The notes under the pieces: model-generated | Told to the model about the DNA's origin: nothing | What the model saw: the letters and a program-made list of their open reading frames with translations, nothing else | Database searches by the model: none | Made by a program: the position numbers and the translations under genes | Shown: one piece after another, positions 5,774-50,292 of the stretch | How the letters are laid out: each line of letters begins with the position of its first letter | How positions within the stretch are numbered: position 1 is the first letter of the stretch | From: a phage | DNA: 64,000 nucleotides | NCBI GenBank assembly: GCA_032691205.1 | Contig: GCA_032691205.1_4541.1 | Direction: 5' to 3' (one strand)

Positions 5774-6023
5774 CTTTTTTCAACAATTGGCATACTTTAA
5801 AAAGACTTGCTGAATCCTTGCAAGGGTAGAAAGATGTACGATAATCACGTACGCCAACCTTGCGGATCTCGATGTTCTCGCATGTTGTTTGATCAAAGAT
5901 ATTTATTTCATCACGCCCCCTTATATAAACATAGTGGGGATGTATTAACGCATATTTTGCTAATCTGTAAAAAGCGTTATCTTTGAACGCGATCACGTGA
6001 CCTTTTAATTTGATGTAAAACAT
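5766..6023 (-). CDS. hypothetical protein
   Basis: ORF 85 aa downstream of unit 15. Confidence 0.6.
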   Translation of the reverse strand: MFYIKLKGHVIAFKDNAFYRLAKYALIHPHYVYIRGRDEINIFDQTTCENIEIRKVGVRDYRTSFYPCKDSASLFKVCQLLKKGG

Positions 6024-7921: not shown

Positions 7922-8464
7922 TCACAAATATCGTCTTTGCGGTATTTTGTCTGGGAAAAGTATTTCGATCAGTTTATTATGATATTTGCCTAAAAGATTC
8001 TGCCCTTTCCAGGTGGCAGGGTTTAGCACCCCTGGTTCATACATCCCCATTCCAATTCCGTAAACCTTATCGTAGGGGCTTGCTTCAACAAACGTTTTGT
8101 ATTGGTAAAGGTGTAAGTCTGCATACAAATCTGGATTCTGTACATATTTCAAGCATAAACCTCGCATAACAATACGCTCACGGTTCTCTTCCCATACATT
8201 GTTATCAAAATCCGACACTGCCCTACCCATACGTTTGTAATAAGCTTGGATCTTCTCATCTTTCCGTATCAAACTATGAGTCAGAATAGCCTGTGCAGTG
8301 TTGTGGTCATTAAAAAGCAAAGCTTTACGCCACATCATATATTGTTCGACACAATTAAATGTCTGATTGTAACCTGGTTCGGTTTCTGTAAAGGGTGCAA
8401 TATACCAATTACTAAAAACATCTTTATGTGAAAAGAAGAATACATAATCATCAGTTATTCGCAT
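7922..8464 (-). CDS. NADAR-domain protein (YbiA/DUF1768-like)
   Basis: 180 aa; motifs FFFSHKDVFSNWY, EQYMMWRKALLF, FDNNVWEENRERIVMRGLCLKYVQNPDL, GIGMGMYEPG read as NADAR family. Confidence 0.65.
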   Translation of the reverse strand: MRITDDYVFFFSHKDVFSNWYIAPFTETEPGYNQTFNCVEQYMMWRKALLFNDHNTAQAILTHSLIRKDEKIQAYYKRMGRAVSDFDNNVWEENRERIVMRGLCLKYVQNPDLYADLHLYQYKTFVEASPYDKVYGIGMGMYEPGVLNPATWKGQNLLGKYHNKLIEILFPDKIPQRRYL

Positions 8465-8675: not shown

Positions 8676-9018
8676 AAACTGCGTCTGCGTCGATGAGTTT
8701 GTGTTTGTTGTTCCGCATGTAGTCTAAGATAAGTAGACGTTTATTGTATCTGGAGAGATTATGACCCTCTTTTCCGCCATAGTCAAAATATTTTGCAAGA
8801 TCTTTACACTCAAACAAAATCAGTTCGGGAGTTTCTTCACACTGGTCTGTCTGGTACACTTGACGAATGATCATGTATACATCGTCGTCTTCCGCTAAAT
8901 GCTCTACTGGTCCACATCCAGCAGGAACAAATTCATAGTCCCATCTGATCAGATGTTTCTCTACTGCTTCAAAGAAGTCCATTCTTTCGTTGCGCATAAT
9001 TTGAACGTCAACTAACAT
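8653..9018 (-). CDS. hypothetical protein
   Basis: ORF 121 aa. Confidence 0.55.
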   Translation of the reverse strand: MLVDVQIMRNERMDFFEAVEKHLIRWDYEFVPAGCGPVEHLAEDDDVYMIIRQVYQTDQCEETPELILFECKDLAKYFDYGGKEGHNLSRYNKRLLILDYMRNNKHKLIDADAVYGYWWMD

Positions 9019-20180: not shown

Positions 20181-22811
20181 GTGTCTACACAATTGAGTTT
20201 TACACCTACTGATGAACAATACGCTATTGAAAGCGGGTATAAAGAAAATCGTTTCGTTACAATTCAAGCTAAATCTGGATCAGGTAAAACGTCAACACTG
20301 TATATGTTGGCTAATGGCACAAATGATAGTATTCTATATTTGGCATTTAACAAAAGTATGGCAGAGGAAGCTCGACGTAAAATGCCGCCCAATGTTATGT
20401 GCCGAACGCTACATTCAATCTGTTACCAACGTCTTCCACAAAACCTTCGACACAAATTGTCTCGTCCAGAAGGTCAATATGTTAACGTAGCTGGAACTGG
20501 TAGTGAGATTGCCAAAAAATTCAAGATTCAGAATTTGATTGATAAGAATGGTAAAGTGCTACTGACTCGTGCAATGATCGGGTTAATGGTAAAACAAACT
20601 TTAGCTAAATATGAGTTTTCTGACGATGAACATATTGGACATAAACATTTTCCTAAAGTGCATATGTCAGATCTTAAACGTAAGAACATCAACGAACAAA
20701 AACTTATTAACGAAGTTGTTAAATATGCGAAGCAACTTTGGCGTGAGCGTATTGATCCTAAATCAGAAACCATTATGACTCATGACACCTATGTGAAACT
20801 CTTTGAATTGAGTAAAGAAGATTTAGGATACGATATTATTTTTGGAGATGAATTCCAGGATGTTAACCCTGCATTCCTGTCTATCCTTCGCAATGCTAAA
20901 TCGGCTAAACGTATTGTTGTTGTGGGTGATGAGTTTCAGTGTGTGTCTGAGAACACTTTGCTTAACACTGAACAAGGGAAAGTTTTAATGAAAGATCTTC
21001 AGGTCGGGGATAAAGTAGAGTCTTACTTAAACGGTAAAGTGGTGTTTAAAACAGTCACAAACAAAACTTTATCTACTCGAACAGAAGGCAGAAACATTAT
21101 TACATCCAAAGGGAATACGTTAGACATGACTCACAATCATCGCATATGGGCTTCTTCTTACACTTTAAAAGAAGACCAAATGATTGTTTACCTTATGTGG
21201 AGAAAAGATTTAGGCTTTCGTGTAGGAATTACTAACAAATTCGATGATAAAGAAGGTTTTTCTAAACTGGGGCAACGTACACGTTCTGAAAAAGCACAGA
21301 AATTGTGGGTGTTGGATATTGTTGAAAACCGTGAAGCTGCTATGGAAAAAGAAATGGCATACAGTTTACAATATGGCATTCCTACTTGTGTATTTGAAGC
21401 AAGTTCACGCAGTATTAATCAAGAAAGGGTCAATAACATTTTTGAACAATTCGGACAAAACGGTTTTAAACTTTTAGAGGATAAAGATTATCATTTTGAC
21501 TATCCTCATTGGCACAGTATTAACTCTTCAACAGAGAATCGCAAAATGCTTACTGTCTCACTGCGTGCTCAAGGTAAGAAAGGGACTGAGGTGCACTTTG
21601 AATGGACAGAAGAAGAGATGCAGATTTTCGATACTTTGGTAGAGGCAGGTGTTAAGATAAGTAATGCTAAAAATGCAGGTCGTTTCCGTGTTCGTAAGTA
21701 TTTTGCATCTTATAGTGAAGCTTTAACTTTCGCAGAAGAAATTTTAACTATTATTCCTTTCGCCTCTTTGAAAGAGTCTATGGCATCTGTAGATGGTGTA
21801 AAGTATAACTTAATACCTGCCGCAGGATTGTTTAAAGGAATGTCTGTGCTTGTTAAAAACGGGGATACTGTTGTTGCTGAAGAGATTGTAGAGATTGAAG
21901 ATACTCAAGGTTTCTACTATGATGTAGAGATTGAAGATACTGCAAACTTCTTTGGGAATAACATTTTAAGTCATAATTGTATCTACCAGTTCCGAGGTAG
22001 TTCTAATATGATGGTTGAGACTGCCACATATGGGGTTGAGTTGCCTCTGACAGCTTGTTTTCGCTTTGGTCCTAAAGTTGCGGACATTGCTAATGCGATC
22101 CTTTCTGATCGCTCACCTCTGAAGCATCCGCTGGTAGGGAAAGGTTATGATACTGTCACTGGAAGTTTTCATTCTGATGTGGTAGATTATAGTAAACCTT
22201 ACACCATTATTTTCCGTAAGAATTTGACCCTGTTGCTCGAAGCTATGGATCGAATCGCTAACGGAGAAGAGATTATTATTAACGTAGATACCAAAGATTT
22301 CATTTCTATGGTTGATAGTGTTAATGCTTTACGTAGAGGTGATTTGGACAAAGTTAAGCATGAGACAGTTCTACCTTACACTTCTTGGGAAGAATTTGTA
22401 GAGTGTGCAGAATCAGATCCTGATGCAAAACGACTTTTAAACATCGTTGTTTCTGGTAAAGCTAATAATATTGCATACACTTTACGTATGCACCGTAACT
22501 CTCCAACGGCTAAAGTTACTTTAACTACAGCCCACAAATCAAAAGGTTTGGAATGGGATCAGGTTATTGTTGCAAATGACTTCCCTTCTAATTATGATAA
22601 GAAGGGTGAGTGGGTAGGTCTTGAAGAATCAGAACGAAATCTTCTGTATGTTGCACATACACGTTGTATTAAATGTCTGCAATGGAACCGAACTGTTCAA
22701 GAGATTTTAGACATGCATCGTTTAGGTAAGAGCACGGCTCCTGTATCTGAAGAAGATAAGCTTATAGCTGCCCTTGCTCGTAAGATTAATCAAATCAGAG
22801 AGGATCGTTAA
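20181..22811 (+). CDS. UvrD/PcrA-like superfamily 1 DNA helicase, interrupted by an intein
   Basis: GTG start with RBS; Walker A AKSGSGKTST, motif II FGDEFQDVNP, motif III rebuilt as GDEFQ|CIYQFRGS after removing 20940-21977. Confidence 0.8.
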   Translation: MSTQLSFTPTDEQYAIESGYKENRFVTIQAKSGSGKTSTLYMLANGTNDSILYLAFNKSMAEEARRKMPPNVMCRTLHSICYQRLPQNLRHKLSRPEGQYVNVAGTGSEIAKKFKIQNLIDKNGKVLLTRAMIGLMVKQTLAKYEFSDDEHIGHKHFPKVHMSDLKRKNINEQKLINEVVKYAKQLWRERIDPKSETIMTHDTYVKLFELSKEDLGYDIIFGDEFQDVNPAFLSILRNAKSAKRIVVVGDEFQCVSENTLLNTEQGKVLMKDLQVGDKVESYLNGKVVFKTVTNKTLSTRTEGRNIITSKGNTLDMTHNHRIWASSYTLKEDQMIVYLMWRKDLGFRVGITNKFDDKEGFSKLGQRTRSEKAQKLWVLDIVENREAAMEKEMAYSLQYGIPTCVFEASSRSINQERVNNIFEQFGQNGFKLLEDKDYHFDYPHWHSINSSTENRKMLTVSLRAQGKKGTEVHFEWTEEEMQIFDTLVEAGVKISNAKNAGRFRVRKYFASYSEALTFAEEILTIIPFASLKESMASVDGVKYNLIPAAGLFKGMSVLVKNGDTVVAEEIVEIEDTQGFYYDVEIEDTANFFGNNILSHNCIYQFRGSSNMMVETATYGVELPLTACFRFGPKVADIANAILSDRSPLKHPLVGKGYDTVTGSFHSDVVDYSKPYTIIFRKNLTLLLEAMDRIANGEEIIINVDTKDFISMVDSVNALRRGDLDKVKHETVLPYTSWEEFVECAESDPDAKRLLNIVVSGKANNIAYTLRMHRNSPTAKVTLTTAHKSKGLEWDQVIVANDFPSNYDKKGEWVGLEESERNLLYVAHTRCIKCLQWNRTVQEILDMHRLGKSTAPVSEEDKLIAALARKINQIREDR
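20940..21977 (+). mobile_element. intein in the helicase (346 aa)
   Basis: Begins CVSENTLLNTEQGKVLMKDLQVGDKV (block A), TxxH at LDMTHNH, ends FYYDVEIEDTANFFGNNILSHN followed by +1 Cys. Confidence 0.75.
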
Positions 22812-25098: not shown

Positions 25099-25971
25099 AT
25101 GAAAGATTTGTACCAAGATGTTTTTTCTTTTTTAGATCGCACTTCAGAAACATACACTAGAGAGAATGCAAACAAACCTTCCCACCTTGTTAACACGCAC
25201 AGGGATCTCTTGGCGGGGATTTTAAGCAAACATATGGCAATGACACAGATACTGCCAAAAAACTTGTCAGAGTGGCATACAGAAGGTTTTGGACATATTC
25301 ACGACTTGGATTATCTGCTCTCTCCTCTTACAAACTGTTGTCTTGTTAATTATCAAGATATGTTAGAGAATGGTTTTAAGATCGGTGCTGCACAGATAGA
25401 AAAACCAAAATCTATTGGAGTAGCTACTACAGTGCTAACTCAAATCATCCAAGCTGTTGCCTCCAGTCAGTATGGAGGTCAGACGTGTGCTCACATTGAT
25501 AAAGGTCTTAGTCCTTATGTTGAAGCCAGTTTCCTTAAAAACATGGAGATAACCAAACGTCGCTACGGTTGTTATGCAAGGAAAGAAGCCCTAGAAATGA
25601 CCGAACAAGATGTATATGACGCTATGCAAACTCTCTTGTATCAGGTTAACACTTTAATGAGTGTTAATGGACAATCTCCTTTTATTACAATCAGTATGGG
25701 TCTGGATACCTCTGTTTTTGGCAGAATGATCACAGCTAACTATCTTAAAGTGCATAGTAACGGTCTAGGCAAAGATCATGTAACGCCTGTATTCCCTAAA
25801 GTTATTTTCTTTTTACAAGAAGGTGTTAACATGAAACCTAGTGATCCTAACTACGACCTTAAGCAACAAGCTTTGGCATGTTGTGCTGATCGTATTTATC
25901 CAGATTTTATTTCTGTTCCTTTGAACAAAGAAGTTACGGGATCAGCAGATGGTACCGTTACGAGTATGGGT
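25099..25971 (+). CDS. nrdD: anaerobic ribonucleoside-triphosphate reductase NrdD, exon 1
   Basis: NrdD-like N-terminus (ENANKPSHLVNTHRDLLAGILSKH, NCCLVNYQDMLENGFKIGAAQIEKPKSIGVAT); exon ends ...VTSMG at 25971. Confidence 0.75.
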
Positions 25972-26740
25972 AAACTATAACTGCTCATGTAAAATCTGCC
26001 TAAACGGGGGAACTCTCAACGAGACAATCCCGTGCTAAACGTAACAGAACTCCCAACACAGAAGAAGGGGGTACTGATATGAGAAAACAAATTCGTGATT
26101 TTGAAGGGTATGAAATTGACGAGCTTGGAAATGTTTATTGTACCAGGTATAAGGATGAAAGAATCCTTCGCTCGTGGGAAGAAATAAACACAGGATACCA
26201 ACTTGTCAGAATACGTAAAAACAAGAAAACTGTTTGCTTTCGGGTGCACAGACTTGTAGCTGAAGCGTTTTTACCCAATCCAGACAATTTACCTTATGTG
26301 AAGCATAAAGGTGACAATAGGAAAGACAACAGTGTATACAATCTTGAGTGGGGATCTTGTCCAGACAACACGCAAGAGGGTTACGATAATAACTGTTATG
26401 CTTTCTATACAAGGTGTCACAGTGTAAAAGCTACTCATAAGGCTACTGGTGAAGTTTTTTACTTTAAAAGTCTGAGATGTTGTGCTGACGCTTTAGGGTT
26501 GGACAGAAAAAGAATATCTGCAATCTTAAAGCGAGGAGCACCAAATAATTATGATTATGAGTTCTGTTACGAAATGCCTAACGACTAGCTGTGATGAATG
26601 TAGCAGCGTAGGGTGTAAGCCTATGACACCCCAAATGGTAGACATGCTTTAAGCATGAAGATATAGTCTGATCTGCATGGTGACATGCAGCAGCACGTAA
26701 TGGTGCGGGAGCGGCCTTGCGAGCCACTTTGAACATAATG
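25972..26740 (+). mobile_element. group I intron in nrdD carrying an HNH gene
   Basis: Exon 1 ends in U, intron ends in G (..CATAATG|TGT); joined exons read ..VTSMG|CRSFLSYY.. as one 604-aa NrdD. Confidence 0.65.
26079..26588 (+). CDS. HNH homing endonuclease (intron-encoded)
   Basis: 169 aa; VHRLVAEAFLPNPDNLPYVKHKGDNRKDNSVYNLEW; own RBS GAAGGGGG. Confidence 0.65.
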   Translation: MRKQIRDFEGYEIDELGNVYCTRYKDERILRSWEEINTGYQLVRIRKNKKTVCFRVHRLVAEAFLPNPDNLPYVKHKGDNRKDNSVYNLEWGSCPDNTQEGYDNNCYAFYTRCHSVKATHKATGEVFYFKSLRCCADALGLDRKRISAILKRGAPNNYDYEFCYEMPND

Positions 26741-27682
26741 TGTAGAAGTTTCTTGTCGTACTATGCCACCGAACAAGGAGAAAAATATGATGGACGATTC
26801 AACCTTGGAGTAGTTTCTATCAACTTGCCTCTGATTGCTGCGGAAGCGAGAAGTAAAGGAGAATCTTTCACCGATCTTCTTAATAAACATATGGAGATAG
26901 CCTACGATGCTCACATGTTACGTGTAAACCGTATCAGACATACCAAAGCATCGGAAAACCCTATTCTTTTCATGGAAGGGGCTTTAGCGCGTTTAAATGC
27001 CAACGATGAAATTGGTGCTTTGTTTGAAGGTGGTTATGCTTCTATTAGTATTGGTTATGTAGGTCTTGCCGAAGCTTTGGAAATCCTTTATCCAGAGGAA
27101 AAAGATAAAAAGGAACTAGGTAAAAACATTCTGCAACATATGAAAGATGTGTGTGCTGTGTTTAAAGAACGATCTAAGTTGGCATTTAGTCTTTATGGAA
27201 CTCCAGCAGAATCCTTGTGCTATAAATTTGCAACAGCTTTAAATGAAAAATATCCAGGTCTGGTAGAAAGAGACTATCTTACTAATTCTTTTCATCAACC
27301 TGTAGGGTTGGTAACAAATCCTTTTGAAAAATGGGATTATGAAGCAGGTTTTGCACAGATTAGCAATGGTGGTAACATAAGTTATGTCGAAACACCAAAC
27401 TTAAAGAATAACTTAGAAGCTTTGGAGACTTTAGTAGACTACGCTTATGAACATATTCACTATTTTGGTATTAATCAGCCCGTGGATCAATGCTTTAAGT
27501 GTGGTTTTCATGGAGAATTTAAGGCAACGGCTAAAGGGTTTGAGTGTCCTGATTGTGGCAACCATGAAGAAGAAACTATTTCTGTAGTTAGACGTGTATC
27601 AGGGTATCTTTCTGCCCCTAATTCACGGCCTTATAACAAAGGTAAAATGCAGGAAGTTTTGCAAAGGGAGAAACATCTTTGA
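26741..27682 (+). CDS. nrdD: anaerobic ribonucleoside-triphosphate reductase NrdD, exon 2
   Basis: C-terminal Zn ribbon CFKCGFHGEF...CPDCG and glycyl-radical motif RRVSGYLS. Confidence 0.75.
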   Translation, partial: CRSFLSYYATEQGEKYDGRFNLGVVSINLPLIAAEARSKGESFTDLLNKHMEIAYDAHMLRVNRIRHTKASENPILFMEGALARLNANDEIGALFEGGYASISIGYVGLAEALEILYPEEKDKKELGKNILQHMKDVCAVFKERSKLAFSLYGTPAESLCYKFATALNEKYPGLVERDYLTNSFHQPVGLVTNPFEKWDYEAGFAQISNGGNISYVETPNLKNNLEALETLVDYAYEHIHYFGINQPVDQCFKCGFHGEFKATAKGFECPDCGNHEEETISVVRRVSGYLSAPNSRPYNKGKMQEVLQREKHL

Positions 27683-28369: not shown

Positions 28370-28975
28370 ATGCAACATAGTGTAGTAGTCAATATGCCGA
28401 ATAGTGGGGATAAATCTTTTGGTGTCCCTGCTAAAAAAGTGTGGAAAGCCCATTTTCATCTTACTTTATCTAACGTTAGTTCTGAAGAGTTGATGAAAGC
28501 AGCTAAGATTATTGGTGCCAAATGCACAACAATTGATTTACATCGGGATACAAAGTCTCAACGTGATCGTATGTTAACAAAGTATCAAAGCGATCTCGAC
28601 ACTACTTTAATGTTGCAGTGTGTAGAAAAACTTGAGAATGCAGGTTTCAATGTTGTTCGTTACAAACTGGAACGAATGTTTAAACATGTTGCCTGTGTTC
28701 TTTTCATGGATCTAAGTAAAGAAAATTATGGAGAAGTTCACATTAAGACTTCAGCAAGTGATCCCGAAGTAGAAACAAACTTCTTCCGTATTTCTTCTAA
28801 TGCTGAAGAAATTGATTACCGATTTTATAATGCTCGCTTATATTCCGCAGAAGATAAGTTGCGTTTCAATGAAGCGTATGATATGCTCTTGAACAGTGGG
28901 ATACAGATAAAAGGCTACCACATAGAACAAGTTGTGGTAGACAGTAACTTAAATCTTGATGCGTGGTGGGCCTAG
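28370..28975 (+). CDS. hypothetical protein
   Basis: ORF 201 aa, RBS GAGGAGATAAG; first gene of the Ter-like block. Confidence 0.65.
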   Translation: MQHSVVVNMPNSGDKSFGVPAKKVWKAHFHLTLSNVSSEELMKAAKIIGAKCTTIDLHRDTKSQRDRMLTKYQSDLDTTLMLQCVEKLENAGFNVVRYKLERMFKHVACVLFMDLSKENYGEVHIKTSASDPEVETNFFRISSNAEEIDYRFYNARLYSAEDKLRFNEAYDMLLNSGIQIKGYHIEQVVVDSNLNLDAWWA

Positions 28976-28976
28976 T

Positions 28977-29633
28977 ATGACAATAAAACATATTTCTTTT
29001 GATGTATGGAATACTCTTATTTCTGCCAATCAAAACTATGCAGATGCACGTACGCACACTATTGCTACATATGGTAGAATGTCTGAACGTGCGGCAAAAG
29101 AAGCATATAAAGATGCCAAAGAAATTATGGATAATGCTGCACTAAATGGGTGTGCAGAAGGTGTAGCATATGCATGGAATATGTTGGGAAGAAAGATAGG
29201 TTTAACCCCTGTAGAATCTGCACAAATGCGTTTTGAGTGTGAGCAATGGTTTCTTAAATTTCCTCCACATATCGCTTTAGATTTGCCAGTTTGTTTGCTA
29301 TACTTGTCTGGTAAATATGATCTTAGTATTAAAAGCAATACTAATTTTATATCTGGGGATATTTTGCGTCGTGCTTGTATGTTCGACAGTTGGAATTGTT
29401 TTGAATTTATGCATTTTTCAGACGAACATCTGTTATGTAAACCAGATCCTAGATTCTTTGTTAGGACCGCCACATATTCAAGCATTCCTTTGAAGGCTGA
29501 AGAGATTTTACATGTTGGGGACAGCGAAGAATTTGATGGTAAATGTGTTGACATAGGGATTAACTTCTGTCATATTAAGAACCCTAACGATTTACTAGAG
29601 AAACTTAAAAGAGGAGAAATTGTAAATGCGTAA
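28977..29633 (+). CDS. HAD-superfamily-like hydrolase (divergent)
   Basis: ISFDVWNTL (motif I with the second Asp replaced) and LHVGDSEEFDGK (motif IV-like). Confidence 0.4.
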   Translation: MTIKHISFDVWNTLISANQNYADARTHTIATYGRMSERAAKEAYKDAKEIMDNAALNGCAEGVAYAWNMLGRKIGLTPVESAQMRFECEQWFLKFPPHIALDLPVCLLYLSGKYDLSIKSNTNFISGDILRRACMFDSWNCFEFMHFSDEHLLCKPDPRFFVRTATYSSIPLKAEEILHVGDSEEFDGKCVDIGINFCHIKNPNDLLEKLKRGEIVNA

Positions 29634-30453
29634 TCAAACTCAAATTTTTGCAAATAAATTTGATGACCTGGAAACTGCTACTTTTGATATCAAAGACTAT
29701 TCAAAATTGAAATTTGGTTGTAACCAAGCTGCGCGTCGTATGGGTAAAGAATTGGCACTTCAGTTTTTTGCTCAAGTGGCAATGAAACATATTGGGGAAC
29801 AATTTGTTATCATCCCTTCTCCTTATAACCATGTGCACAATGCTGCAACAATGATGACAGATCATTTTATTAATTACTTTAATATGTTGCAAGCACAATA
29901 TGATCAAGGTCGTTCAGCAGAACTGGATATTATTCATCGTAAAGTTAGCTATATCAACGATTATGGTTTCTTGGATAAAGCTAGTCGTAAGAAACTTATT
30001 GATGGGGATACATTCTACTGCAACAAAGAATTCTGGGGTGATAAGAAGCTTGTGTTCATTGATGATGTAAATATCACCGGAACTCATGAAGACAAACTGA
30101 TTGAGATTCTTGATGAAAATCAAGTTAAAAATGATGTTTACTTCTTGTATTTTGCAAAATATGAAGGTAATCAAGCAGATACTGAAGCTAAACTGAATTT
30201 TAACTACATCAATACACCAGAAGCGTTTGTTAAAATGATTAATGAAGAACGTGATGCACAGTGTCTTGTTCGTCCTATTAAGTATCTTATGGGCCAAAAT
30301 CACGAAGACTTCAAAATCATTCTTAGCCAATTGCCACACTACTATGTAGAGCAACTTTTCTTCGGATGTTTGGGAGAAGGTTACAACCGAATTTCAAAGT
30401 ATGCTGAAAACTTTGAATTCTTGGATCGTTACACAAAACAACACATTCTGTAA
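29626..30453 (+). CDS. phosphoribosyltransferase-like protein
   Basis: PRPP-binding signature KKLVFIDDVNITGTHEDKL. Confidence 0.55.
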   Translation: MRNQTQIFANKFDDLETATFDIKDYSKLKFGCNQAARRMGKELALQFFAQVAMKHIGEQFVIIPSPYNHVHNAATMMTDHFINYFNMLQAQYDQGRSAELDIIHRKVSYINDYGFLDKASRKKLIDGDTFYCNKEFWGDKKLVFIDDVNITGTHEDKLIEILDENQVKNDVYFLYFAKYEGNQADTEAKLNFNYINTPEAFVKMINEERDAQCLVRPIKYLMGQNHEDFKIILSQLPHYYVEQLFFGCLGEGYNRISKYAENFEFLDRYTKQHIL

Positions 30454-30466
30454 TAAGGAGCTAAAA

Positions 30467-30940
30467 ATGCTTAAAATGAAAACAGGTAATCTTATTGATG
30501 CCGCTAAAGCAGGTGAAGTAACTGTTATTGCTCATTGTTGCAATTGTATGTGTAATATGGGAGCAGGAATTGCTCCGCAAATTAAACGAGCATTCCCTTA
30601 TGCATATGCGGCAGATTTAGACACAATGGCTGGTGATCAAAGTAAGTTAGGTTCTTTTAGTTTAGGGGTGCCAGACGAACAATCAGACCCTTTGGTATAT
30701 AATCTATACGGGCAATACCGTTACGGATACAATGCTAAAGGTCGTCAGTTGGACTATGATGCACTTTACGATGCACTAATAGCTATGGCTAATGATTTGC
30801 TTCTCCGTGACCAAAAATGTAAGATAGGTTTACCTATGATTGGAGCGGGACATGCCGGAGGTAATTGGGCTATCATCCAAGTGATGATTGAAGAAACTTT
30901 AGTAAAAACAGGTCACGATGTGACTATTTATAAACTTTAA
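30467..30940 (+). CDS. macro-domain protein (ADP-ribose binding/hydrolase)
   Basis: Start MLKMKTGN with RBS TAAGGAG; EVTVIAHCCNCMCNMGAGIAPQIKRAFP and IGLPMIGAGHAGG. Confidence 0.65.
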   Translation: MLKMKTGNLIDAAKAGEVTVIAHCCNCMCNMGAGIAPQIKRAFPYAYAADLDTMAGDQSKLGSFSLGVPDEQSDPLVYNLYGQYRYGYNAKGRQLDYDALYDALIAMANDLLLRDQKCKIGLPMIGAGHAGGNWAIIQVMIEETLVKTGHDVTIYKL

Positions 30941-30952
30941 GAGGAGATTAGT

Positions 30953-31174
30953 ATGGGTGTTTTTGCAGGTATTGTTGCAGTGGTAAGCTTTTTTGTTATT
31001 GCTTTTATGCTTAGTTTGATTCCAGCTTGGTTACTGTTGCTGGCTTACAACTATGTTGCTGAAGTTATGGGTCATGCAGATATCACTGTCCCAGTAACCT
31101 TCTGGACCGTGGTTTGTGTTTCGTTTATTTTGGCGGTATTACGAGGAATCTTTTCCTCTCATTCAACAAAATAA
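30953..31174 (+). CDS. hypothetical small membrane protein
   Basis: 73 aa, two predicted TM helices. Confidence 0.55.
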   Translation: MGVFAGIVAVVSFFVIAFMLSLIPAWLLLLAYNYVAEVMGHADITVPVTFWTVVCVSFILAVLRGIFSSHSTK

Positions 31175-31177
31175 GTG

Positions 31178-31236
31178 TTGACATAGTTCTTAAAAAGAGT
31201 AAGATATATCACATGAAGCGGGGAATAGTTCCCCGC
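31178..31236 (+). promoter_or_regulatory. early-type promoter + 5'-UTR hairpin unit (only plus-strand copy), upstream of terC
   Basis: TTGACA-16nt-TAAGAT then hairpin GCGGGGAA-TAG-TTCCCCGC (31218-31236), RBS AGAGGAGAA. Confidence 0.6.
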
Positions 31237-31253: not shown

Positions 31254-32228
31254 ATGCAACTCGGTTTCCCAATTATTGATGTAGTTGTTTTAGTTGGTAT
31301 TTTAGCATTGTCTATTGGTATCGATTTCTTTGGTCATAAAGAGAATAAAGAAATTGGAATTAAATCTGCTTTGCTTTGGTCTGTTTTTTGGATTGCTTTA
31401 GCTTTAGGGTATTACGCATTCATTTGGGTAGAACATGGTAAAGAGTTTGCCGCGCTTTTCCTAAGTGGCTATGTGTTGGAAAAGAGTCTTTCTGTAGATA
31501 ACCTAATGGTGTTCATGGCAATTTTTGCAAGCTTTGGAATTAAGAGCACACATCTCCAACATAAGATTCTACTTTGGGGGATTGCAGGAGCCATTGTCTT
31601 CCGAGGTATTTTTGTTGCAGCAGGGACCGCTTTGTTTAACCTTCATTGGTCGGTCCAAGTGTTGTTCGGTTTGATTGTAGCTTGGTCTGCCGTGGCTATC
31701 ATCAAAGGTGGTGACGAAGAAGAGGATATTGATTACTCTAAACATTGGGCTGTTCGTTTAGTAGGTAAAGTTCTGCCTGTGCACAATGCACTGGATGGTG
31801 AAAAGTTCATCACCATTAAGAATGGTATTAAATATGCAACTCCTGCTCTTCTTTGTGTGTTTGTTATTGAGCTTACAGATATTGTCTTCTCTTTTGATTC
31901 AGTTCCGGCTGTGATCGGTGTGACACAAGAACCTCTGCTAGTTTATTCTGCAATGCTGATGGCTGTTCTTGGTTTACGTGCACTTTTCTTTGTGTTAAGT
32001 GTAGCTGTGAAATATCTGGTTCACTTAGAGAAAGCTGTTGCTGTGGTTCTGGTGTTTGTTGGTGCTAAACTTATGTATCACCCGTTCGGTGAAACACTTC
32101 ATGCCAAGTGGTCATTCCTCCCGCATGATATTTCCCCTAACGTAAGTCTGATGATTGTTCTAGGCACATTATCTCTTGGTGTTATTGCAAGCTTTATCTT
32201 CCCTGAAAAAGAAGAAGCTACTGTTTAA
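31254..32228 (+). CDS. terC: TerC-family integral membrane protein
   Basis: 324 aa multi-pass; conserved LEKSLSVDNLMVF and ELTDIVFSFDSVPAVIGV. Confidence 0.65.
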   Translation: MQLGFPIIDVVVLVGILALSIGIDFFGHKENKEIGIKSALLWSVFWIALALGYYAFIWVEHGKEFAALFLSGYVLEKSLSVDNLMVFMAIFASFGIKSTHLQHKILLWGIAGAIVFRGIFVAAGTALFNLHWSVQVLFGLIVAWSAVAIIKGGDEEEDIDYSKHWAVRLVGKVLPVHNALDGEKFITIKNGIKYATPALLCVFVIELTDIVFSFDSVPAVIGVTQEPLLVYSAMLMAVLGLRALFFVLSVAVKYLVHLEKAVAVVLVFVGAKLMYHPFGETLHAKWSFLPHDISPNVSLMIVLGTLSLGVIASFIFPEKEEATV

Positions 32229-32234
32229 TAAATG

Positions 32235-32258
32235 AGCCTCCTTCGGGAGGCTATTTTA
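32235..32258 (+). terminator. rho-independent terminator
   Basis: AGCCTCC-TTCG-GGAGGCT then ATTTTAT. Confidence 0.6.
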
Positions 32259-46723: not shown

Positions 46724-49700
46724 TGAGTAAGTTTACATGGGATATTGAAGCAAACGGATTGTTGAATAATGACACTATTGATTATTTAGCTAGTCCTTAT
46801 CGTCTCAAAGACACATTTCAAATGCACTGTATTGTCTTAGAGAACCATGAAACAGGAGAAATAGTAGCTTTCCACGATGGCCCTAAATACATCTTTGATG
46901 GGCGTCCTTATGAAGAGTCAGATGGTAAATACACATATGTTCTTAAAGAGTATGTGGCGCAAGATTACACGCATTTTCAACTAAAAGATTTCCCAGACTT
47001 TATTAATCATGAAGGTTATTTTAAAGACAAGCCTGAATATCTGGTTGAAATGGCTGTGGCTCACAACGGTATCAACTACGACTGGTTGGCTACAAAACTG
47101 TTTTATGGATTAGATTACAGTGTTAAATATAATACGTGGGGCAAAAATAAGGTAAAACTTATTGACTCCTTGATTTTGAGTAAAGTGTTAAACCCAGATC
47201 GAAAGATTGAGGGCAAATCAGGACATAGCTTGGCAGCACTTTCTCGAAAGGCAGGGGGTGATGTAAAAATAGATTTCCGTAAAGAGATTCCAGAAGAAGA
47301 TCGATTTAAGACTTTTGCTGCTGATATGCTTTATTACTGTATCTATGACAACAAAGCCAATACGAGCGTATATAATTACCTTATGGAAGAGTGGGGTGAT
47401 TATGATAAATGGGAAGGTCCATTTGAACTTGAACAACGTGTAGCAGACATTATTACACGCCAGGAACACCGTGGGTTTGCTTTTAACATGAAGCAAGCAG
47501 AAGAGAACCTTGCTTTTTTGGATGCAGAAATGGAGCGTCTTCGTTTACTCGTTGAGCCTATTTTGCCACCTAAACCAGCAACAAAAGGTTATCTTAAGGC
47601 TTTTATTCCACCTAAGTTGCAAATTAAAAAGAACTTAGAGCCAACTAACCATATGATCAATTTTGCTAAGAAACATGATGGTCATTTGGAAGAGAGGGAT
47701 GGAGATTGGTGGTTAGTGATGTTGGGGAAAGAGTGGAAACTGCCAGTTGCAGCAGATGAGCCTTTGTGTGATCCTAATATCCCTGCAACATTGAACGATA
47801 CTACCCATATTAAAAACTGGCTTGTAGGATTAGGTTGGGTACCGTCTGAATATAAAGATAAAGACTTGACTCTTAAATCTGGCACCAAGATTAAAAAGAG
47901 CGAGGAAGAACTTCAGAAAGGTATTCGAGCTTACGTTGAGCAAACTCTATCTTCTAATTTTTGTCAGGATCGTTGTGATCATCTGGAGTGCACACCGGAA
48001 ACCTTGGAAAGGAAGATTCAAGAGCGTATAGCAAAAGGTAAAGGTCGCGGTCTTAAAGTATTGACTAACCCATGTTTTACCAAAGGTCAGGAAAAAGAAA
48101 TTTGTCCTAACCTGCAAGCTTTGGGTGAGAAATTTCCTTATGCTACACAGATTGTAGAATACTTAACGTATAAGCATCGTAGGAACTCTATTTTAGGCGG
48201 TGGTGCTGATTGGGAAGAAGACGAAGAAGATCAAGAATACAACAAAGGTTTCTTGGCAGCAGTTCGTGCAGATGGACGTATACCTACGCCAGCGGCTACA
48301 TGCGATGCAGCAACCTCTCGTATGAAGCATAGGTCTGTAGCTAATATTCCTCGTGTCACATCTTTGTTTGGATGGCAGATGCGTAACCTGTTTGGTGTAG
48401 AGGTTCCTAAATACTTCCAGATTGGTTATGACTTTGATTCATTAGAGGCGAAGATTGAGTCGCATTATACGTGGAGATATGATAATCCTGATCATGCTTA
48501 CTGTAATGCACTTCTGTTAGAAAAACCAAACGATGTGCATACTATGATGGCAAAACATATTACTGATATTATTGGACGTAAGTTTGAACGTGGTCCTGCT
48601 AAGAGCGTTAAATACGGTTGTGTACCTGTAGATAATACGGAAGTGTTAACAAGAACGGGTTGGAAGAAACGTAAAGATCTTTTTGTAGGGGATGAAGTTT
48701 TATCTTATAATACTCACACCGCTCTTTACGAATATACCCCTATTCTTAAGCTGTGGGACTATAACGATGCAGAAGTTGTCTCTCTCGGTAACAAGTGGTT
48801 CAAAGTAGAAGTTACTAACGATCATATGTGGATTAACGCACAGAGAAAAACTATGCGATCAGATGGTAACAATGTTAAGTATATGCAAGTGGAGCGTAGA
48901 TCTACAGAGGATTTAAACTCGGAGTCAAACATAATTGCAGCAGGGCGATCTGGTGTGGTGTCTACTCTAACAGTGGAAGAAGGTCGTTTCTTAGGCTGGC
49001 TTCTTTCGGATGGCTACTATAAGTGGTCTGGCAAAGCCAGAAATAAAGTAATGGGTATTACAGTCACGGTAGATCAAGATGAGAAAAAATTCTTAGAAGA
49101 AGCACGTGAGGCTGTGGGAGATATCTTCACATTTGACGAGTATGTATCTGGAACGATGCATTCATTACGTCCTAATAAGAGTCAGTTTAGGGAATTTTTG
49201 ACTAAATGTGGCGTTGAAGTGGGTCAAAATAAGCACGAAGTGGACTGGTCTACATTAATTGCTAATCAAGGTCAAGCTGTGTTGGAAGCATTCTTAGAGG
49301 CATTCTGGATGGCAGATGGTCATAAGCGTCCAAACGGCAGTTTTGTTATCCGTCAAAAGAAAGGTAAGATTAGCGACGCTGTTTCTTTGGCTATCAATAT
49401 GACAGGTAATATTGCGTATGGTTCTGTTCAAAAAGATGGCATGTTAACGTTGGCAATCAATAACGGACAAACTATTTCAGGACAGAGGTTGACAAAAGCT
49501 TTTTCACGAGTAACAGATGTATTCTGTATCTCAACCAAGAATGAATCTTTTGTTATGCGTCAGAATGGTTTTATCACGTTGACAGGTAACTGCACGTACG
49601 GCGCTCAAGCAGACAAGGTTGCTAAAACAATTGGTAGCGATAAATACACAGGTCAATTAGTGTTCGATGCTTTCTGGGAAGCTGCATTCCCACTGGCGCG

Positions 49701-50292
49701 TCTTAAAGAACGTTTAAACGATTTCTGGGTTAAGACTGGTAAACAGTATGTTTTGGGTATTGACGGTCGTAAGGTTCCTACTCGTTCTGCTCACGCGATT
49801 CTTAACTCTCTGTTCCAAAGTGGTGGGGTTATCTGTGCTAAACGTGCAATGGTTATTTATGACGATATGATCGAAGAAGAAGGACTAAGTGTTGACTTCT
49901 TTAAAGATGACTGGAAGAATAAAGACTTCGTGCAACAAATGATTGCATATCACGATGAAGCCCAGCTTGAAGTTTCTCGTAACCTTGTAGAATTTAAATG
50001 GTTTTCACCTGAATCATTAGGTTGGAAGAAAGTAGACGATCCTGAAGAACAAAAGAAAATTGATAAAGAATGCCTTGCTAAAGTCGAAGAATGGAAGCAT
50101 AATAAGGAAAAAGAGACAGGGCAAATTTGGGCTAACATTCATGAATCTCCCAAAGGTGGATGGTTTACAGCCTATAGTCGGGCAGGTGAACTTGCTGCCT
50201 TAGCTGTTACTAAGGCTGGAGAATTTTACAATCTTAATGTTCAGCTTACTGCCGGATATGATGTGGGTAATTCCTGGGCATCCTGTCATTGA
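46723..50292 (+). CDS. family A DNA polymerase with 3'-5' exonuclease, interrupted by an intein
   Basis: GTG start; N-terminus FTWDIEANGLL...HCIV resembles T7 gp5; motif B rebuilt as PAKSVKYG|CTYGAQADKVAKTIG after removing 48619-49590. Confidence 0.85.
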   Translation: MSKFTWDIEANGLLNNDTIDYLASPYRLKDTFQMHCIVLENHETGEIVAFHDGPKYIFDGRPYEESDGKYTYVLKEYVAQDYTHFQLKDFPDFINHEGYFKDKPEYLVEMAVAHNGINYDWLATKLFYGLDYSVKYNTWGKNKVKLIDSLILSKVLNPDRKIEGKSGHSLAALSRKAGGDVKIDFRKEIPEEDRFKTFAADMLYYCIYDNKANTSVYNYLMEEWGDYDKWEGPFELEQRVADIITRQEHRGFAFNMKQAEENLAFLDAEMERLRLLVEPILPPKPATKGYLKAFIPPKLQIKKNLEPTNHMINFAKKHDGHLEERDGDWWLVMLGKEWKLPVAADEPLCDPNIPATLNDTTHIKNWLVGLGWVPSEYKDKDLTLKSGTKIKKSEEELQKGIRAYVEQTLSSNFCQDRCDHLECTPETLERKIQERIAKGKGRGLKVLTNPCFTKGQEKEICPNLQALGEKFPYATQIVEYLTYKHRRNSILGGGADWEEDEEDQEYNKGFLAAVRADGRIPTPAATCDAATSRMKHRSVANIPRVTSLFGWQMRNLFGVEVPKYFQIGYDFDSLEAKIESHYTWRYDNPDHAYCNALLLEKPNDVHTMMAKHITDIIGRKFERGPAKSVKYGCVPVDNTEVLTRTGWKKRKDLFVGDEVLSYNTHTALYEYTPILKLWDYNDAEVVSLGNKWFKVEVTNDHMWINAQRKTMRSDGNNVKYMQVERRSTEDLNSESNIIAAGRSGVVSTLTVEEGRFLGWLLSDGYYKWSGKARNKVMGITVTVDQDEKKFLEEAREAVGDIFTFDEYVSGTMHSLRPNKSQFREFLTKCGVEVGQNKHEVDWSTLIANQGQAVLEAFLEAFWMADGHKRPNGSFVIRQKKGKISDAVSLAINMTGNIAYGSVQKDGMLTLAINNGQTISGQRLTKAFSRVTDVFCISTKNESFVMRQNGFITLTGNCTYGAQADKVAKTIGSDKYTGQLVFDAFWEAAFPLARLKERLNDFWVKTGKQYVLGIDGRKVPTRSAHAILNSLFQSGGVICAKRAMVIYDDMIEEEGLSVDFFKDDWKNKDFVQQMIAYHDEAQLEVSRNLVEFKWFSPESLGWKKVDDPEEQKKIDKECLAKVEEWKHNKEKETGQIWANIHESPKGGWFTAYSRAGELAALAVTKAGEFYNLNVQLTAGYDVGNSWASCH
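48619..49590 (+). mobile_element. intein with LAGLIDADG homing endonuclease, in the polymerase
   Basis: Starts CVPVDNTEVLTRTGWKK; LAGLIDADG motifs FLGWLLSDGYY and LEAFWMADGH; ends VMRQNGFITLTGN followed by +1 Cys. Confidence 0.75.

What the first reader, a model, noticed from the sequence alone, without database searches (positions are those of the whole stretch)
30467..30940. Macro-domain protein in the Ter-like block
The motifs VIAHCCNCMCNMGAGIA and IGLPMIGAGHAGG indicate an ADP-ribose-binding or hydrolysing macro domain. In a phage this could reverse host ADP-ribosylation (for example DarT1-type thymidine modification) or process an ADP-ribose-derived product of the adjacent PRTase and HAD enzymes.
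Basis: partly seen in the sequence, partly recalled or inferred. Interest (0 to 1): 0.55.

Follow-up and report, generated by a model that had tools for sequence, protein, structure and literature searches.

The report
Phage stand-alone macrodomain ADP-ribose hydrolase
This gene of a phAPEC8-like E. coli phage encodes a small macrodomain enzyme from a widespread phage family, two members of which were recently shown to undo ADP-ribose-based bacterial defences, so it is a predictable new member of a known counter-defence family and not a new kind of system.

Summary
Window 30467-30940 (+) is a real 157-aa gene with a Shine-Dalgarno site and both quoted motifs. It is a confident macrodomain (Pfam Macro just above threshold; PHROG 335 E 1e-55; AlphaFold pLDDT 94; best folds TARG1, DarG, Poa1p, SCO6735).

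The window is a Phapecoctavirus (99.9% identical to phage ESCO13 here). The protein belongs to the phage Tk.4 family, found in about 3,000 phage records. Two members have experimental functions:
- T4 Tk.4/AdfM counters the DarTG2 defence (37% identical).
- Vibrio phage Gary Adpp is an ADP-ribose-1''-phosphate phosphatase that feeds the NARP1 NAD+-rebuilding operon (41% identical).

All invariant active-site residues are shared by the three proteins. They match the lysine-less SCO6735 type, which cleaves thymidine-linked ADP-ribose.

This phage has no NARP1 genes, and Adpp without them did not work. It does carry a NADAR gene related to the anti-DarTG1 factor AdfN, as T4 does. [quoted passage not shown] ADP-ribose-1''-phosphate hydrolysis is the main rival, and the two are not exclusive.

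Coupling to the neighbouring HAD and PRTase genes is not supported: that pair recurs in other phages without a macro gene. New member of a known kind; modest interest.

The parts
30467..30940 (+). Macrodomain gene, 157 aa plus stop; a member of the phage Tk.4 (AdfM/Adpp) family, PHROG 335
   Evidence: ORF and translation. Pfam Macro. PHROG 335 at E 1e-55. AlphaFold2 pLDDT 94.2. Foldseek hits TARG1, DarG, Poa1p and SCO6735. It is 37% identical to T4 Tk.4, 41% to Gary Adpp and 48% to the NARP1-adjacent macro of phage PHB09.
30455..30460 (+). Shine-Dalgarno sequence AAGGAG, 6 nt before the ATG
   Evidence: Read directly from the sequence. An RBS is annotated at the equivalent place in ESCO13.
30524..30574 (+). 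Catalytic loop 1, residues V20-A36 (VIAHCCNCMCNMGAGIA), containing His23, Asn26 and Cys27
   Evidence: H23, N26 and C27 are invariant in the 20-sequence family alignment, which includes T4 AdfM and Gary Adpp. The loop aligns in register with Poa1p IHSCNCNGSWGGGIA, so Poa1p H23 equals H23 here. N26 aligns with DarG N22, and H23/N26 align with SCO6735 H24/N27.
30701..30715 (+). Residues N79-Q83 (NLYGQ). Gln83 occupies the position of the catalytic Lys of DarG (K80) and TARG1 (K84), and of Gln85 in SCO6735.
   Evidence: phmmer alignments. N79, Y81 and Q83 are invariant in the family. SCO6735 Q85A/E mutants lose all activity on thymidine-ADP-ribosylated DNA (PMC9411070).
30824..30862 (+). Phosphate-binding loop, residues I120-G132 (IGLPMIGAGHAGG). 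Ala130 sits where TARG1 has Asp125.
   Evidence: P123, G126, G128 and G132 are invariant. The loop aligns with PRIGCGLAGG of SCO6735/BT1257 and PRIGCGLDRLQW of TARG1. The SCO6735 G128E mutation reduces activity.
7922..8464 (-). NADAR-domain gene, 180 aa. It is a likely AdfN-type (anti-DarTG1) partner counter-defence gene. It is not adjacent to the macro gene and is listed as supporting context.
   Evidence: Pfam NADAR scores 124 bits, E 7.8e-36. It is 59% identical to the syntenic NADAR of Justusliebigvirus VEcB. The NADAR of the phi92-like phages Bas60-62 (AdfN-Bas60) restores plaquing on DarTG1 hosts (PMC11825919; PMC8594841).

Best explanation
The gene encodes a stand-alone, catalytically competent macrodomain hydrolase of the phage Tk.4 family (PHROG 335), within the TARG1/DarG/SCO6735/Poa1p class. 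It binds ADP-ribose and cleaves whatever is attached to the C1'' of the distal ribose.

In this phage its most likely job is that of an orphan, DarG2-like antitoxin. When a host DarT2 toxin ADP-ribosylates thymidines in phage single-stranded DNA and blocks replication, the enzyme removes the ADP-ribose and replication resumes.

Catalysis is inferred to follow the lysine-less SCO6735 route. An activated water attacks, and the substrate is positioned by Gln83, Asn26, His23 and the glycine-rich loop. This differs from the Lys-based chemistry of DarG and TARG1.

**Shown here:** the gene, the fold, family membership, conservation of the active-site residues, absence of NARP1 genes, and presence of a NADAR gene.

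**Inferred:** the substrate (thymidine-linked ADP-ribose on DNA) and the defence that is countered. The same active site may also dephosphorylate ADP-ribose-1''-phosphate.
For: **Fold and family**
- The macro fold is modelled with high confidence, and its nearest solved structures are all ADP-ribose C1'' hydrolases.
- It falls in the same PHROG as T4 Tk.4, with a similar match to the macro-only part of the DarG model: 39 bits here against 36 bits for T4.
- It is 37% identical to T4 Tk.4. A clean T4 tk.4 knockout becomes sensitive to DarTG2, and the gene was named adfM (bioRxiv 10.1101/2025.11.20.689424).

**Active site**
- The 23 invariant family residues, including H23, N26, C27, N79, Y81, Q83, P123, G126, G128, G132 and W134, are present in this protein, in T4 AdfM and in Gary Adpp.
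- H23, N26, Q83 and the Gly loop correspond to SCO6735 H24, N27, Q85 and G128. SCO6735 removes thymidine-linked ADP-ribose from DNA without a catalytic Lys, and Q85A/E abolishes that activity (PMC9411070).

**Genome context**
- A complete Phapecoctavirus genome plus the window has no Adps or Namat homologue (tblastn, E <= 1).
- The Adpp study found that all three NARP1-AP genes are needed to beat aRES. A NARP1-feeding role therefore cannot work here.
- The phage also carries a NADAR gene. It is 59% identical to that of a genus whose NADAR is an experimentally verified anti-DarTG1 factor. This reproduces the AdfN plus AdfM pair of T4.
- Most family members stand alone: 50 of 81 loci have no NAD-related gene within 6 kb. 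A stand-alone function must therefore exist.
Against: - No experiment exists on this protein or on any Stephanstirmvirinae macrodomain.
- It is closer to the biochemically proven ADP-ribose-1''-phosphate phosphatase Adpp (41% identity, 108 bits, full length) and to NARP1-adjacent macros (48% identity) than to T4 AdfM (37% identity over 124 aa, 72 bits).
- Five columns separate six T4-like Tk.4 proteins from eleven NARP-linked macros. This protein has the NARP-linked state at four of them and neither state at the fifth.
- The T4 evidence is genetic only. DNA de-ADP-ribosylation has been shown biochemically for PhiKZ AdfM, which is a different, Lys-containing DarG-like subfamily.
- It lacks the DarT-binding C-terminal domain of DarG.
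Confidence: 0.48

Rival explanations
1. It is an ADP-ribose-1''-phosphate phosphatase (Adpp/Poa1p type) acting on a small molecule rather than on DNA. The substrate would come from RES-domain (aRES) phosphorolysis of NAD+, or from RNA-repair chemistry of the Tpt1/KptA or phage-sirtuin type. The product is free ADP-ribose. This is not exclusive of the best explanation: one active site may do both.
For: - The closest characterised relative is Gary Adpp, which converts ADPR-1P to ADPR in vitro.
- The PHB09 and Thalassavirus homologues sit inside Adps-macro-Namat operons.
- 27 of 81 related loci have Adps- or Namat-like genes within 6 kb, and 16 of those also have a sirtuin.
- The H-x-C-N-C loop aligns in register with Poa1p, including the mutated residue H23, and the Poa1p fold matches at TMq 0.82.
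- This protein shares the NARP-linked state at 4 of 5 discriminating positions.
- aRES systems occur in E. coli and Klebsiella.
- The phage lineage encodes a sirtuin. Such phage sirtuins have been proposed to generate ADPr>P during RNA repair (PMC9503650).
Against: - The phage has no Adps or Namat, and Adpp without them gave no protection against aRES. ADP-ribose would be a dead end for NAD+ rebuilding.
- No Tpt1/KptA or 2H cyclic phosphodiesterase was identified next to the gene. The upstream 201-aa protein has no match to such folds.
- NARP-linked macros are scattered across the family tree. The operon context is therefore acquired repeatedly and does not define a clade to which this protein belongs.
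Confidence: 0.3
2. It is a pathway partner of the adjacent HAD hydrolase and ComF-like PRTase_3 (the Ter-associated 'nucleoside-like metabolite' module). It would process an ADP-ribose- or phosphoribosyl-derived intermediate of that pathway.
For: - The genes are co-directional and tightly packed: the PRTase stops at 30453 and the macro gene starts at 30467.
- The order HAD-PRTase_3-macro-small membrane protein-TerC is kept in both genera of the subfamily, at 47-64% protein identity.
- One unrelated 197-kb phage contig with Ter genes also has a macro gene, 6 kb from its PRTase_3.
Against: - HAD-PRTase_3 is a self-contained pair. HAD lies immediately upstream in 19 of 19 phage loci (some loci come from the same contig). 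Twelve of those loci have no macro gene within 7 kb, including Xanthomonas jumbo phage XaC1.
- 77 of 81 macro loci lack the pair.
- In relatives, 300-950 nt holding other ORFs, or an N-terminal extension of the macro protein, separate PRTase_3 from macro.
- Conserved order inside one phage subfamily is expected from common descent alone.
Confidence: 0.07
3. It removes ADP-ribose from proteins or RNA (modified by a host or phage ADP-ribosyltransferase), or it deacetylates O-acetyl-ADP-ribose made by the phage sirtuin. That is, it acts as a general TARG1/MacroD-like eraser.
For: - TARG1 (OARD1) is the best structural match.
- JGI annotates many homologues as O-acetyl-ADP-ribose deacetylase.
- A sirtuin is encoded in the same phage lineage.
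- Macro and sirtuin genes are neighbours in 16 IMG/VR loci.
Against: - The TARG1 catalytic dyad Lys84/Asp125 is replaced by Gln83/Ala130.
- The sirtuin lies about 44 kb from the macro gene in the related phage nieznany and is not in this window.
- No ADP-ribosyltransferase was found among the window ORFs scanned, although not all ORFs were scanned.
- No experimental precedent exists in this phage family.
Confidence: 0.1

Closest known systems
T4 Tk.4 = AdfM (anti-DarT factor Macrodomain), bioRxiv 10.1101/2025.11.20.689424
   Same: Both are stand-alone proteins of about 155 aa in PHROG 335. They are 37% identical and share all invariant residues, including Gln at the DarG-Lys position. Both come from large E. 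coli myoviruses that lack NARP1 and also carry a NADAR gene.
   Different: T4-like proteins form a divergent branch with their own states at five columns near the active-site loops (H29, L47, Y121, I129, I152). This protein does not share them. The gene neighbourhoods differ: vs/tk in T4, HAD-PRTase_3/TerC here. The T4 function rests on genetics only.
Adpp of Vibrio phage Gary (KNV71_gp137), the ADPR-1''-phosphate phosphatase of the NARP1-AP pathway, bioRxiv 10.64898/2026.01.28.702374
   Same: This is the closest characterised homologue: 41% identical over the full length, same PHROG, same invariant residues, and similar size (158 aa).
   Different: Adpp is encoded between Adps and Namat and needs both to counter aRES. 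This phage has neither gene.
SCO6735 of Streptomyces coelicolor (PDB 5E3B), a thymidine-ADP-ribose DNA hydrolase
   Same: It is the best sequence match among solved structures (E 1e-12). It shares the lysine-less active site, H-x-x-N plus Gln plus the Gly loop, and it is also a single-domain protein.
   Different: It is a bacterial protein, only about 26% identical in the structural alignment. The basic residues K34/K89, implicated in its substrate handling, are not conserved here (A33/G87, from the alignment).
DarG antitoxin of DarTG2 (T. aquaticus 5M31/5M3E; M. tuberculosis 5M3I) and the DarG2-like PhiKZ AdfM (gp104)
   Same: The macro fold is shared (TM about 0.8), as is the conserved Asn (DarG N22 equals N26 here). 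The target chemistry would be the same if the best explanation holds.
   Different: There is no catalytic Lys (K80 in DarG and K78 in PhiKZ AdfM correspond to Q83 here). There is no C-terminal DarT-binding domain and no adjacent darT. It scores 36 bits against a cut-off of 250 for the NCBIfam DarG model.
Yeast Poa1p (PDB 6LFQ), an ADP-ribose-1''-phosphate phosphatase
   Same: Fold match at TMq 0.82. The H-x-C-N-C catalytic loop aligns in register, with Poa1p H23 equal to H23 here.
   Different: Sequence identity is about 20%. Poa1p S30 corresponds to N30 here. Poa1p is a eukaryotic enzyme that handles a tRNA-splicing by-product.

Membership tests
Macro domain (Pfam PF01661) | HMM score at or above the gathering threshold | tested here: met
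   23.0 bits against a cut-off of 22, E 7.9e-5, covering profile positions 2-112 of 118. This is marginal, but it is backed by the fold.
Macro domain (Pfam PF01661) | Three-layer alpha/beta/alpha macro fold | tested here: met
   AlphaFold2 pLDDT 94.2. 231 PDB matches at E <= 0.001, and all 50 listed are macrodomains. The top hit is TARG1 with TM 0.79-0.88.
Phage Tk.4 family (PHROG 335; includes T4 AdfM and Gary Adpp) | Full-length profile match and reciprocal similarity to the characterised members | tested here: met
   phrog_335 at E 1e-55. T4 Tk.4 (1.3e-65) and Gary Adpp (1.3e-49) hit the same profile region. BLASTP gives E 2e-21 to T4 and 2e-35 to Gary.
Phage Tk.4 family (PHROG 335) | The residues invariant across the 20-sequence family alignment are retained | tested here: met
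   23 invariant columns, including H23, N26, C27, D50, T53, K60, N79, Y81, Q83, P123, G126, G128, G132 and W134, are all present.
AdfM (functional class: anti-DarTG2) | Required or sufficient for phage growth on DarTG2 hosts; removes thymidine-linked ADP-ribose from DNA | not testable with these tools
   This needs plaque assays and de-ADP-ribosylation assays. Only homology and context support it.
Adpp / NARP1-AP pathway | Encoded in or next to an Adps + Namat (NARP1) operon | tested here: not met
   tblastn with Gary and PHB09 Adps and Namat found nothing at E <= 1 in the window or in the complete genome of Phapecoctavirus nieznany. The neighbours are PRTase_3 and a 73-aa membrane protein.
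Adpp / NARP1-AP pathway | ADPR-1''-phosphate phosphatase activity | not testable with these tools
   It is 41% identical to the enzyme for which this activity was shown.
DarG antitoxin (NCBIfam NF048014 equivalog; PADLOC DarG) | Score above the curated cut-off, with the macro domain plus the C-terminal DarT-binding domain | tested here: not met
   36 bits against a cut-off of 250. Only profile positions 2-147 of 338 (NCBIfam) and 1-144 of 329 (PADLOC) are matched. The protein ends at residue 157.
DarG antitoxin | Catalytic Lys (K80 in T. aquaticus DarG) | tested here: not met
   It aligns to Gln83.
DarG antitoxin | Adjacent darT toxin gene | tested here: not met
   The flanking genes are PRTase_3 (upstream) and a 73-aa membrane protein followed by TerC (downstream). 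No PADLOC DarT hit was found among the neighbours scanned.
TARG1/OARD1 | Lys84/Asp125 catalytic dyad | tested here: not met
   Gln83 and Ala130 occupy these positions (alignment; dyad as described in PMC9411070).
SCO6735-type lysine-less ALC1-like hydrolases | His24, Asn27, Gln85 and the Gly128 loop | tested here: met
   H23, N26, Q83 and G126/G128 align with them. The roles of these residues are from PMC9411070.
Ter-associated biosynthetic module (PRTase_3 + HAD) | Consistent co-occurrence of the macro gene with the module across lineages | tested here: not met
   Among 19 PRTase_3 loci, a macro gene is adjacent only in the 5 Stephanstirmvirinae-like loci. Only 4 of 81 macro loci carry the module.

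The most novel reading that the evidence does not exclude
In Stephanstirmvirinae the macrodomain might have been recruited into a previously unrecognised salvage route together with the neighbouring HAD phosphatase and type-I ComF-like PRTase_3. It would release ADP-ribose, and ultimately ribose phosphate or PRPP, from ADPR-1''-phosphate or from ADP-ribosylated DNA. The PRTase-HAD pair would then turn that into a nucleotide or nucleoside. This would be a NARP-like counter-defence built from non-homologous enzymes, and it would give the enigmatic phage 'Ter' PRTase-HAD module a substrate.

A weaker but likelier novel reading is that Tk.4-family enzymes are bifunctional: one active site would defeat both DarTG2 and aRES-type NAD+ phosphorolysis. 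I put that at roughly 0.3.
Probability: 0.06. Interest if true: 0.7.

Novelty: new member of a known kind. Interest (0 to 1): 0.3.

Why it matters
Phapecoctaviruses and their relatives are broad-host-range E. coli and Klebsiella phages that are often considered for therapy. Knowing that they carry a DarG2-like macrodomain plus a NADAR predicts resistance to both DarTG classes, and that prediction is cheap to test.

More generally, one phage macrodomain family now has two published and apparently unrelated functions: anti-DarTG2 in T4 and ADPR-1''-phosphate phosphatase in NARP1-AP. The two proteins have the same residue at all 23 invariant alignment columns. This orphan member, from a genome without NARP1, is a good test case for two alternatives. 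Either the family is bifunctional, or subtle loop changes set the substrate.

Tried and rejected
- **NARP1 elsewhere in the phage.** tblastn with two Adps and two Namat proteins against the window and a complete Phapecoctavirus genome found nothing. A NARP1-feeding role is rejected.
- **Functional coupling to HAD-PRTase_3.** I surveyed 81 macro loci and 19 PRTase_3 loci from IMG/VR and other assemblies. Co-occurrence is confined to one phage subfamily, so coupling is rejected as unsupported.
- **Clade-specific function.** A neighbour-joining tree of 80 family members labelled by context shows NARP-linked members scattered, with short deep branches. It cannot assign function by clade.
- **Specificity-determining positions.** Comparing T4-like with NARP-linked proteins gave only five columns. 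They may reflect lineage rather than function, so the result is suggestive only.
- **Upstream 201-aa ORF as a 2H cyclic phosphodiesterase or an AbiEi antitoxin.**
  - The ORF is 28370-28975. A 2H enzyme would complete a Cpd1/Poa1p-type pathway.
  - PADLOC AbiEi models match at E 4.7e-13.
  - Pfam and the PDB sequence profile find nothing.
  - Its identity remains unresolved.
- **Window NADAR against T4 AdfN (gp30.3).** BLASTP shows no detectable similarity. This agrees with the published statement that phage NADARs were acquired independently. I did not fetch the Bas60 sequence itself, so the link to AdfN-Bas60 goes through VEcB, a phage of the same genus.
- **Literature.** A search for any study of Phapecoctavirus macro or Ter genes returned nothing relevant.
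- **Promoter and terminator scan.** The number of promoter-like sites was below the shuffle expectation (11 against a mean of 16.3) and terminator-like sites were within one sd of it (5 against 3.4, sd 1.9), so the scan gives only weak hints about operon boundaries.
Full report
**1. The observation**

The ORF at 30467-30940 (+) is real. It begins with an ATG 6 nt downstream of AAGGAG (30455-30460) and encodes 157 aa. The same CDS is annotated in public records. RefSeq calls it 'phosphatase' in phage ESCO13, and GenBank calls it 'macro domain-containing protein' in phage DE16.

The 4-kb region around the gene is 99.9% identical to Escherichia phage ESCO13. That phage belongs to genus Phapecoctavirus, subfamily Stephanstirmvirinae.

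**2. It is a macrodomain**

| Test | Result |
|---|---|
| Pfam Macro | 23 bits against a cut-off of 22, only just passing |
| PHROG 335 | E 1e-55 |
| PDB sequences, SCO6735 | E 1e-12 |
| PDB sequences, BT1257 | E 2e-8 |
| PDB sequences, T. aquaticus DarG | E 9e-7 |
| PDB sequences, TARG1/OARD1 | E 3.5e-6 |
| PDB sequences, Poa1p | E 2e-3 |
| AlphaFold2, 65-sequence alignment | pLDDT 94.2, pTM 0.91 |
| Foldseek best PDB matches | TARG1 (E 7.6e-12, TM 0.79-0.88), BT1257, DarG, Poa1p (TMq 0.82), SCO6735 |

All of these structures are enzymes or homologues that cleave a substituent from the C1'' of ADP-ribose.

**3. What family, and what is known about it**

tblastn finds homologues in 2,984 of 50,697 phage records, including the 'tk.4' genes of T4-like phages. 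Two members have experimental functions.

- **T4 Tk.4.** It was renamed AdfM. Transposon sequencing and a clean knockout showed that it is needed for T4 to grow on DarTG2 hosts (bioRxiv 10.1101/2025.11.20.689424). The window protein is 37% identical to it over 124 aa.
- **Vibrio phage Gary KNV71_gp137 (Adpp).**
  - It lies between Adps and Namat in an extended NARP1 operon.
  - It converts ADP-ribose-1''-phosphate, the product of RES-domain (aRES) NAD+ cleavage, into ADP-ribose, which NARP1 then rebuilds into NAD+.
  - All three genes were required (bioRxiv 10.64898/2026.01.28.702374).
  - The window protein is 41% identical to it over the full length.
  - It is 48% identical to the NARP1-adjacent macro of Pseudomonas phage PHB09.

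T4 AdfM and Gary Adpp are themselves 35% identical. All three proteins hit the same PHROG and give similar macro-only matches to the DarG model.

A separate 'AdfM', PhiKZ gp104, removes thymidine-linked ADP-ribose in vitro. It is a true DarG-like protein with the catalytic Lys (PMC13309987), so it belongs to a different subfamily.

**4. Active site**

In a 20-sequence alignment that includes T4 AdfM and Gary Adpp, 23 columns are invariant. They include H23, N26, C27, D50, T53, K60, N79, Y81, Q83, P123, G126, G128, G132 and W134.

From the phmmer alignments:
- N26 corresponds to DarG N22.
- Q83 occupies the place of DarG K80 and TARG1 K84.
- A130 occupies the place of TARG1 D125.

The protein is therefore neither TARG1-like nor DarG-like in its chemistry. 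It matches SCO6735, where H24, N27, Q85 and G128 are the equivalent residues. In SCO6735, Q85A/E abolishes hydrolysis of thymidine-ADP-ribosylated DNA, and a water-mediated mechanism was proposed (PMC9411070).

The same loop also aligns in register with Poa1p: IHSCNCNGSWGGGIA against AHCCNCMCNMGAGIA. Poa1p H23, one of the residues mutated in the deposited structures, equals H23 here.

On residues alone the enzyme could therefore perform either documented reaction.

**5. Genomic context**

The gene order on the + strand is:
- nrdD and nrdG
- a small ORF
- a 201-aa unknown protein (28370-28975)
- HAD hydrolase (28977-29633)
- ComF-like PRTase_3 (29626-30453)
- macro (30467-30940)
- a 73-aa membrane protein (30953-31174)
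- TerC (31254-32228)
- SprT-like protein
- TelA
- vWA-TerF-like protein
- TerD

The 'Ter-like block' is thus real.

I then tested whether the macro gene is tied to its neighbours.

- Among 81 IMG/VR loci encoding the closest family members, 4 carry HAD-PRTase_3 and Ter genes, and all 4 are Stephanstirmvirinae-like. A further 27 carry Adps- and/or Namat-like genes within 6 kb, 16 of them with a sirtuin as well. The rest have none of these.
- Among 19 phage loci encoding PRTase_3 (about 14 distinct contigs), HAD lies immediately upstream in all 19.
  - A macro gene is adjacent only in the five Stephanstirmvirinae-like loci.
  - One other contig, represented by two of the loci, has a macro gene 6 kb away.
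- In relatives, the PRTase-macro gap grows from 13 nt to 300-950 nt. It holds either an N-terminal extension of the macro protein or one or two extra ORFs.
- The nearest relatives outside this subfamily have the macro gene directly behind an HNH homing endonuclease.

The macro gene therefore behaves as an independently mobile accessory gene. The adjacency to PRTase and HAD is best explained by shared descent within one subfamily.

**6. Choosing between the two documented functions**

Against the Adpp role:
- The window and a complete Phapecoctavirus genome (nieznany) contain no Adps or Namat homologue (tblastn E <= 1). None is annotated either.
- Adpp without them gave no protection.

For the AdfM role:
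- The phage infects E. coli, as T4 does, and also lacks NARP1.
- The window also encodes a NADAR protein at 7922-8464 (-), with Pfam NADAR at 124 bits.
- That protein is 59% identical to the syntenic NADAR of the sister genus Justusliebigvirus.
- The NADAR of the phi92-like BASEL phages Bas60-62 (AdfN-Bas60) restores phage growth on DarTG1 hosts (PMC11825919; PMC8594841).
- This phage therefore carries the same NADAR plus macro pair that protects T4 against DarTG1 and DarTG2.

Against over-confidence:
- The protein is closer to Adpp than to T4 AdfM.
- Five columns separate six T4-like Tk.4 proteins from eleven NARP-linked macros. This protein has the NARP-linked state at four of them.
- NARP-linked members are scattered over the family tree.
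- The T4 evidence is genetic only.

I therefore give about 0.48 to the anti-DarTG2 DNA de-ADP-ribosylase role and about 0.3 to ADPR-1''-phosphate or other small-molecule hydrolysis. The two are not exclusive.

**7. Comparison with known families, and novelty**

- The protein is a member of Pfam Macro and of the phage Tk.4/PHROG 335 family.
- It is not a DarG. It has no Lys, no C-terminal domain and no adjacent darT, and it scores 36 bits against a cut-off of 250.
- It is not TARG1-type, because the catalytic dyad is absent.
- It is not part of a NARP1-AP operon.

The gene is already annotated as a macro domain or phosphatase in databases, and the functions of its family were published in 2025-2026. 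That makes it a new member of a known kind.

What remains open is which of the two functions, or both, an orphan member of the 'general' sequence type performs.

DarT1 modifies guanosine and is reversed by NADAR proteins.

**8. Limits**

- All functional statements are inferences from homology and context.
- The context survey covers the 80 best IMG/VR matches and a handful of other assemblies. It is not a census.
- The tree is neighbour-joining without support values.
- The Bas60 NADAR sequence was not compared directly.
- The promoter and terminator scan was uninformative.

Noticed in passing
window 7922-8464 (-): A 180-aa NADAR-domain protein (Pfam 124 bits), annotated 'hypothetical' or 'GTP cyclohydrolase II' in public records. 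It is 59% identical to the syntenic NADAR of Justusliebigvirus VEcB. The NADAR of the phi92-like phages Bas60-62 is a published anti-DarTG1 factor (AdfN-Bas60). It shows no BLAST similarity to T4 AdfN.
   Followed up: partly
window 28370-28975 (+): A 201-aa protein of unknown function (phrog_22504), two genes upstream of the macro gene. It matches two PADLOC 'AbiEi' antitoxin models nearly full length (E 4.7e-13) but has no Pfam or PDB sequence hit. The AlphaFold model (pLDDT 81) is a tandem ferredoxin-like fold with no convincing structural match. It has invariant H28, H30, T32 and E122, H124, K126 on facing strands, which suggests an enzyme. It is present in Phapecoctavirus-like contigs but absent from VEcB.
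   Followed up: partly
window 28977-30453 (+); loci L092-L110: The HAD hydrolase and ComF-like PRTase_3 genes overlap by 8 nt and form an invariant pair: HAD lies immediately upstream in 19 of 19 phage loci. These include jumbo phage XaC1 and contigs with no Ter genes at all. The pair is therefore a self-contained two-enzyme module of unknown product that is only sometimes linked to TerC, TelA or TerD.
   Followed up: partly
L018, L021, L024-L027, L029, L030, L036, L039, L040, L043, L091 (IMG/VR): Sixteen uncultivated-phage loci place a Tk.4-family macro gene between a Namat/NadV-like gene and a sirtuin, with an Adps/Prs-like gene a few kb further on. This recurrent macro plus sirtuin plus NAD-salvage cluster may extend the NARP1-AP idea.
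   Followed up: no
L003 3734-4450 (Escherichia phage VEcB); L097 and L098: In Justusliebigvirus the macro protein carries an in-frame N-terminal extension of about 84 aa, which also matches the start of the PHROG 335 profile. A similar domain of about 70 aa (33% identity, E 3e-6) heads a separate ORF with a weak MazG-like C-terminus. That ORF lies between PRTase_3 and macro in two related contigs.
   Followed up: partly
window 30953-31174 (+): A 73-aa predicted membrane protein (phrog_16065) follows the macro gene directly in every Stephanstirmvirinae-like locus examined (42-78% identity). Its adjacency is kept more strictly than the PRTase-macro adjacency.
   Followed up: no
window 25099-27682, 20304-22811 and 46822-50292 (+): The nrdD gene is split by a 169-aa ORF (26079-26588). 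By eye this looks like an HNH/AP2-type homing endonuclease, as in phage nieznany. The helicase ORF (835 aa) and DNA polymerase ORF (1156 aa) are much longer than their ESCO13 or DE16 counterparts, which suggests intein or homing-element insertions.
   Followed up: no
L017, L019, L023 (IMG/VR), positions 5498-6001: The closest macro relatives outside the Ter-carrying subfamily sit immediately behind an HNH_3 homing endonuclease whose stop overlaps the macro start. An RNA ligase lies about 1 kb downstream in two of them. This fits a mobile accessory gene.
   Followed up: partly
window 31178-31205 and 32235-32252 (+): A sigma-70-like promoter match (TTGACA-16-TAAGAT) lies in the 80-nt gap before TerC, and a GC-rich hairpin with a T-run lies right after TerC. 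Together they suggest that TerC is transcribed separately from the HAD-PRTase-macro run. The evidence is weak, because site counts are not clearly above those in shuffled sequence.
   Followed up: no
window 9012-10040 (-); phage nieznany 34996-35796 (outside the window): A 342-aa protein with three CapR-homology repeats lies next to the NADAR region. The phage lineage also encodes a Sir2-family protein, about 13 kb beyond the window's left end.
   Followed up: no
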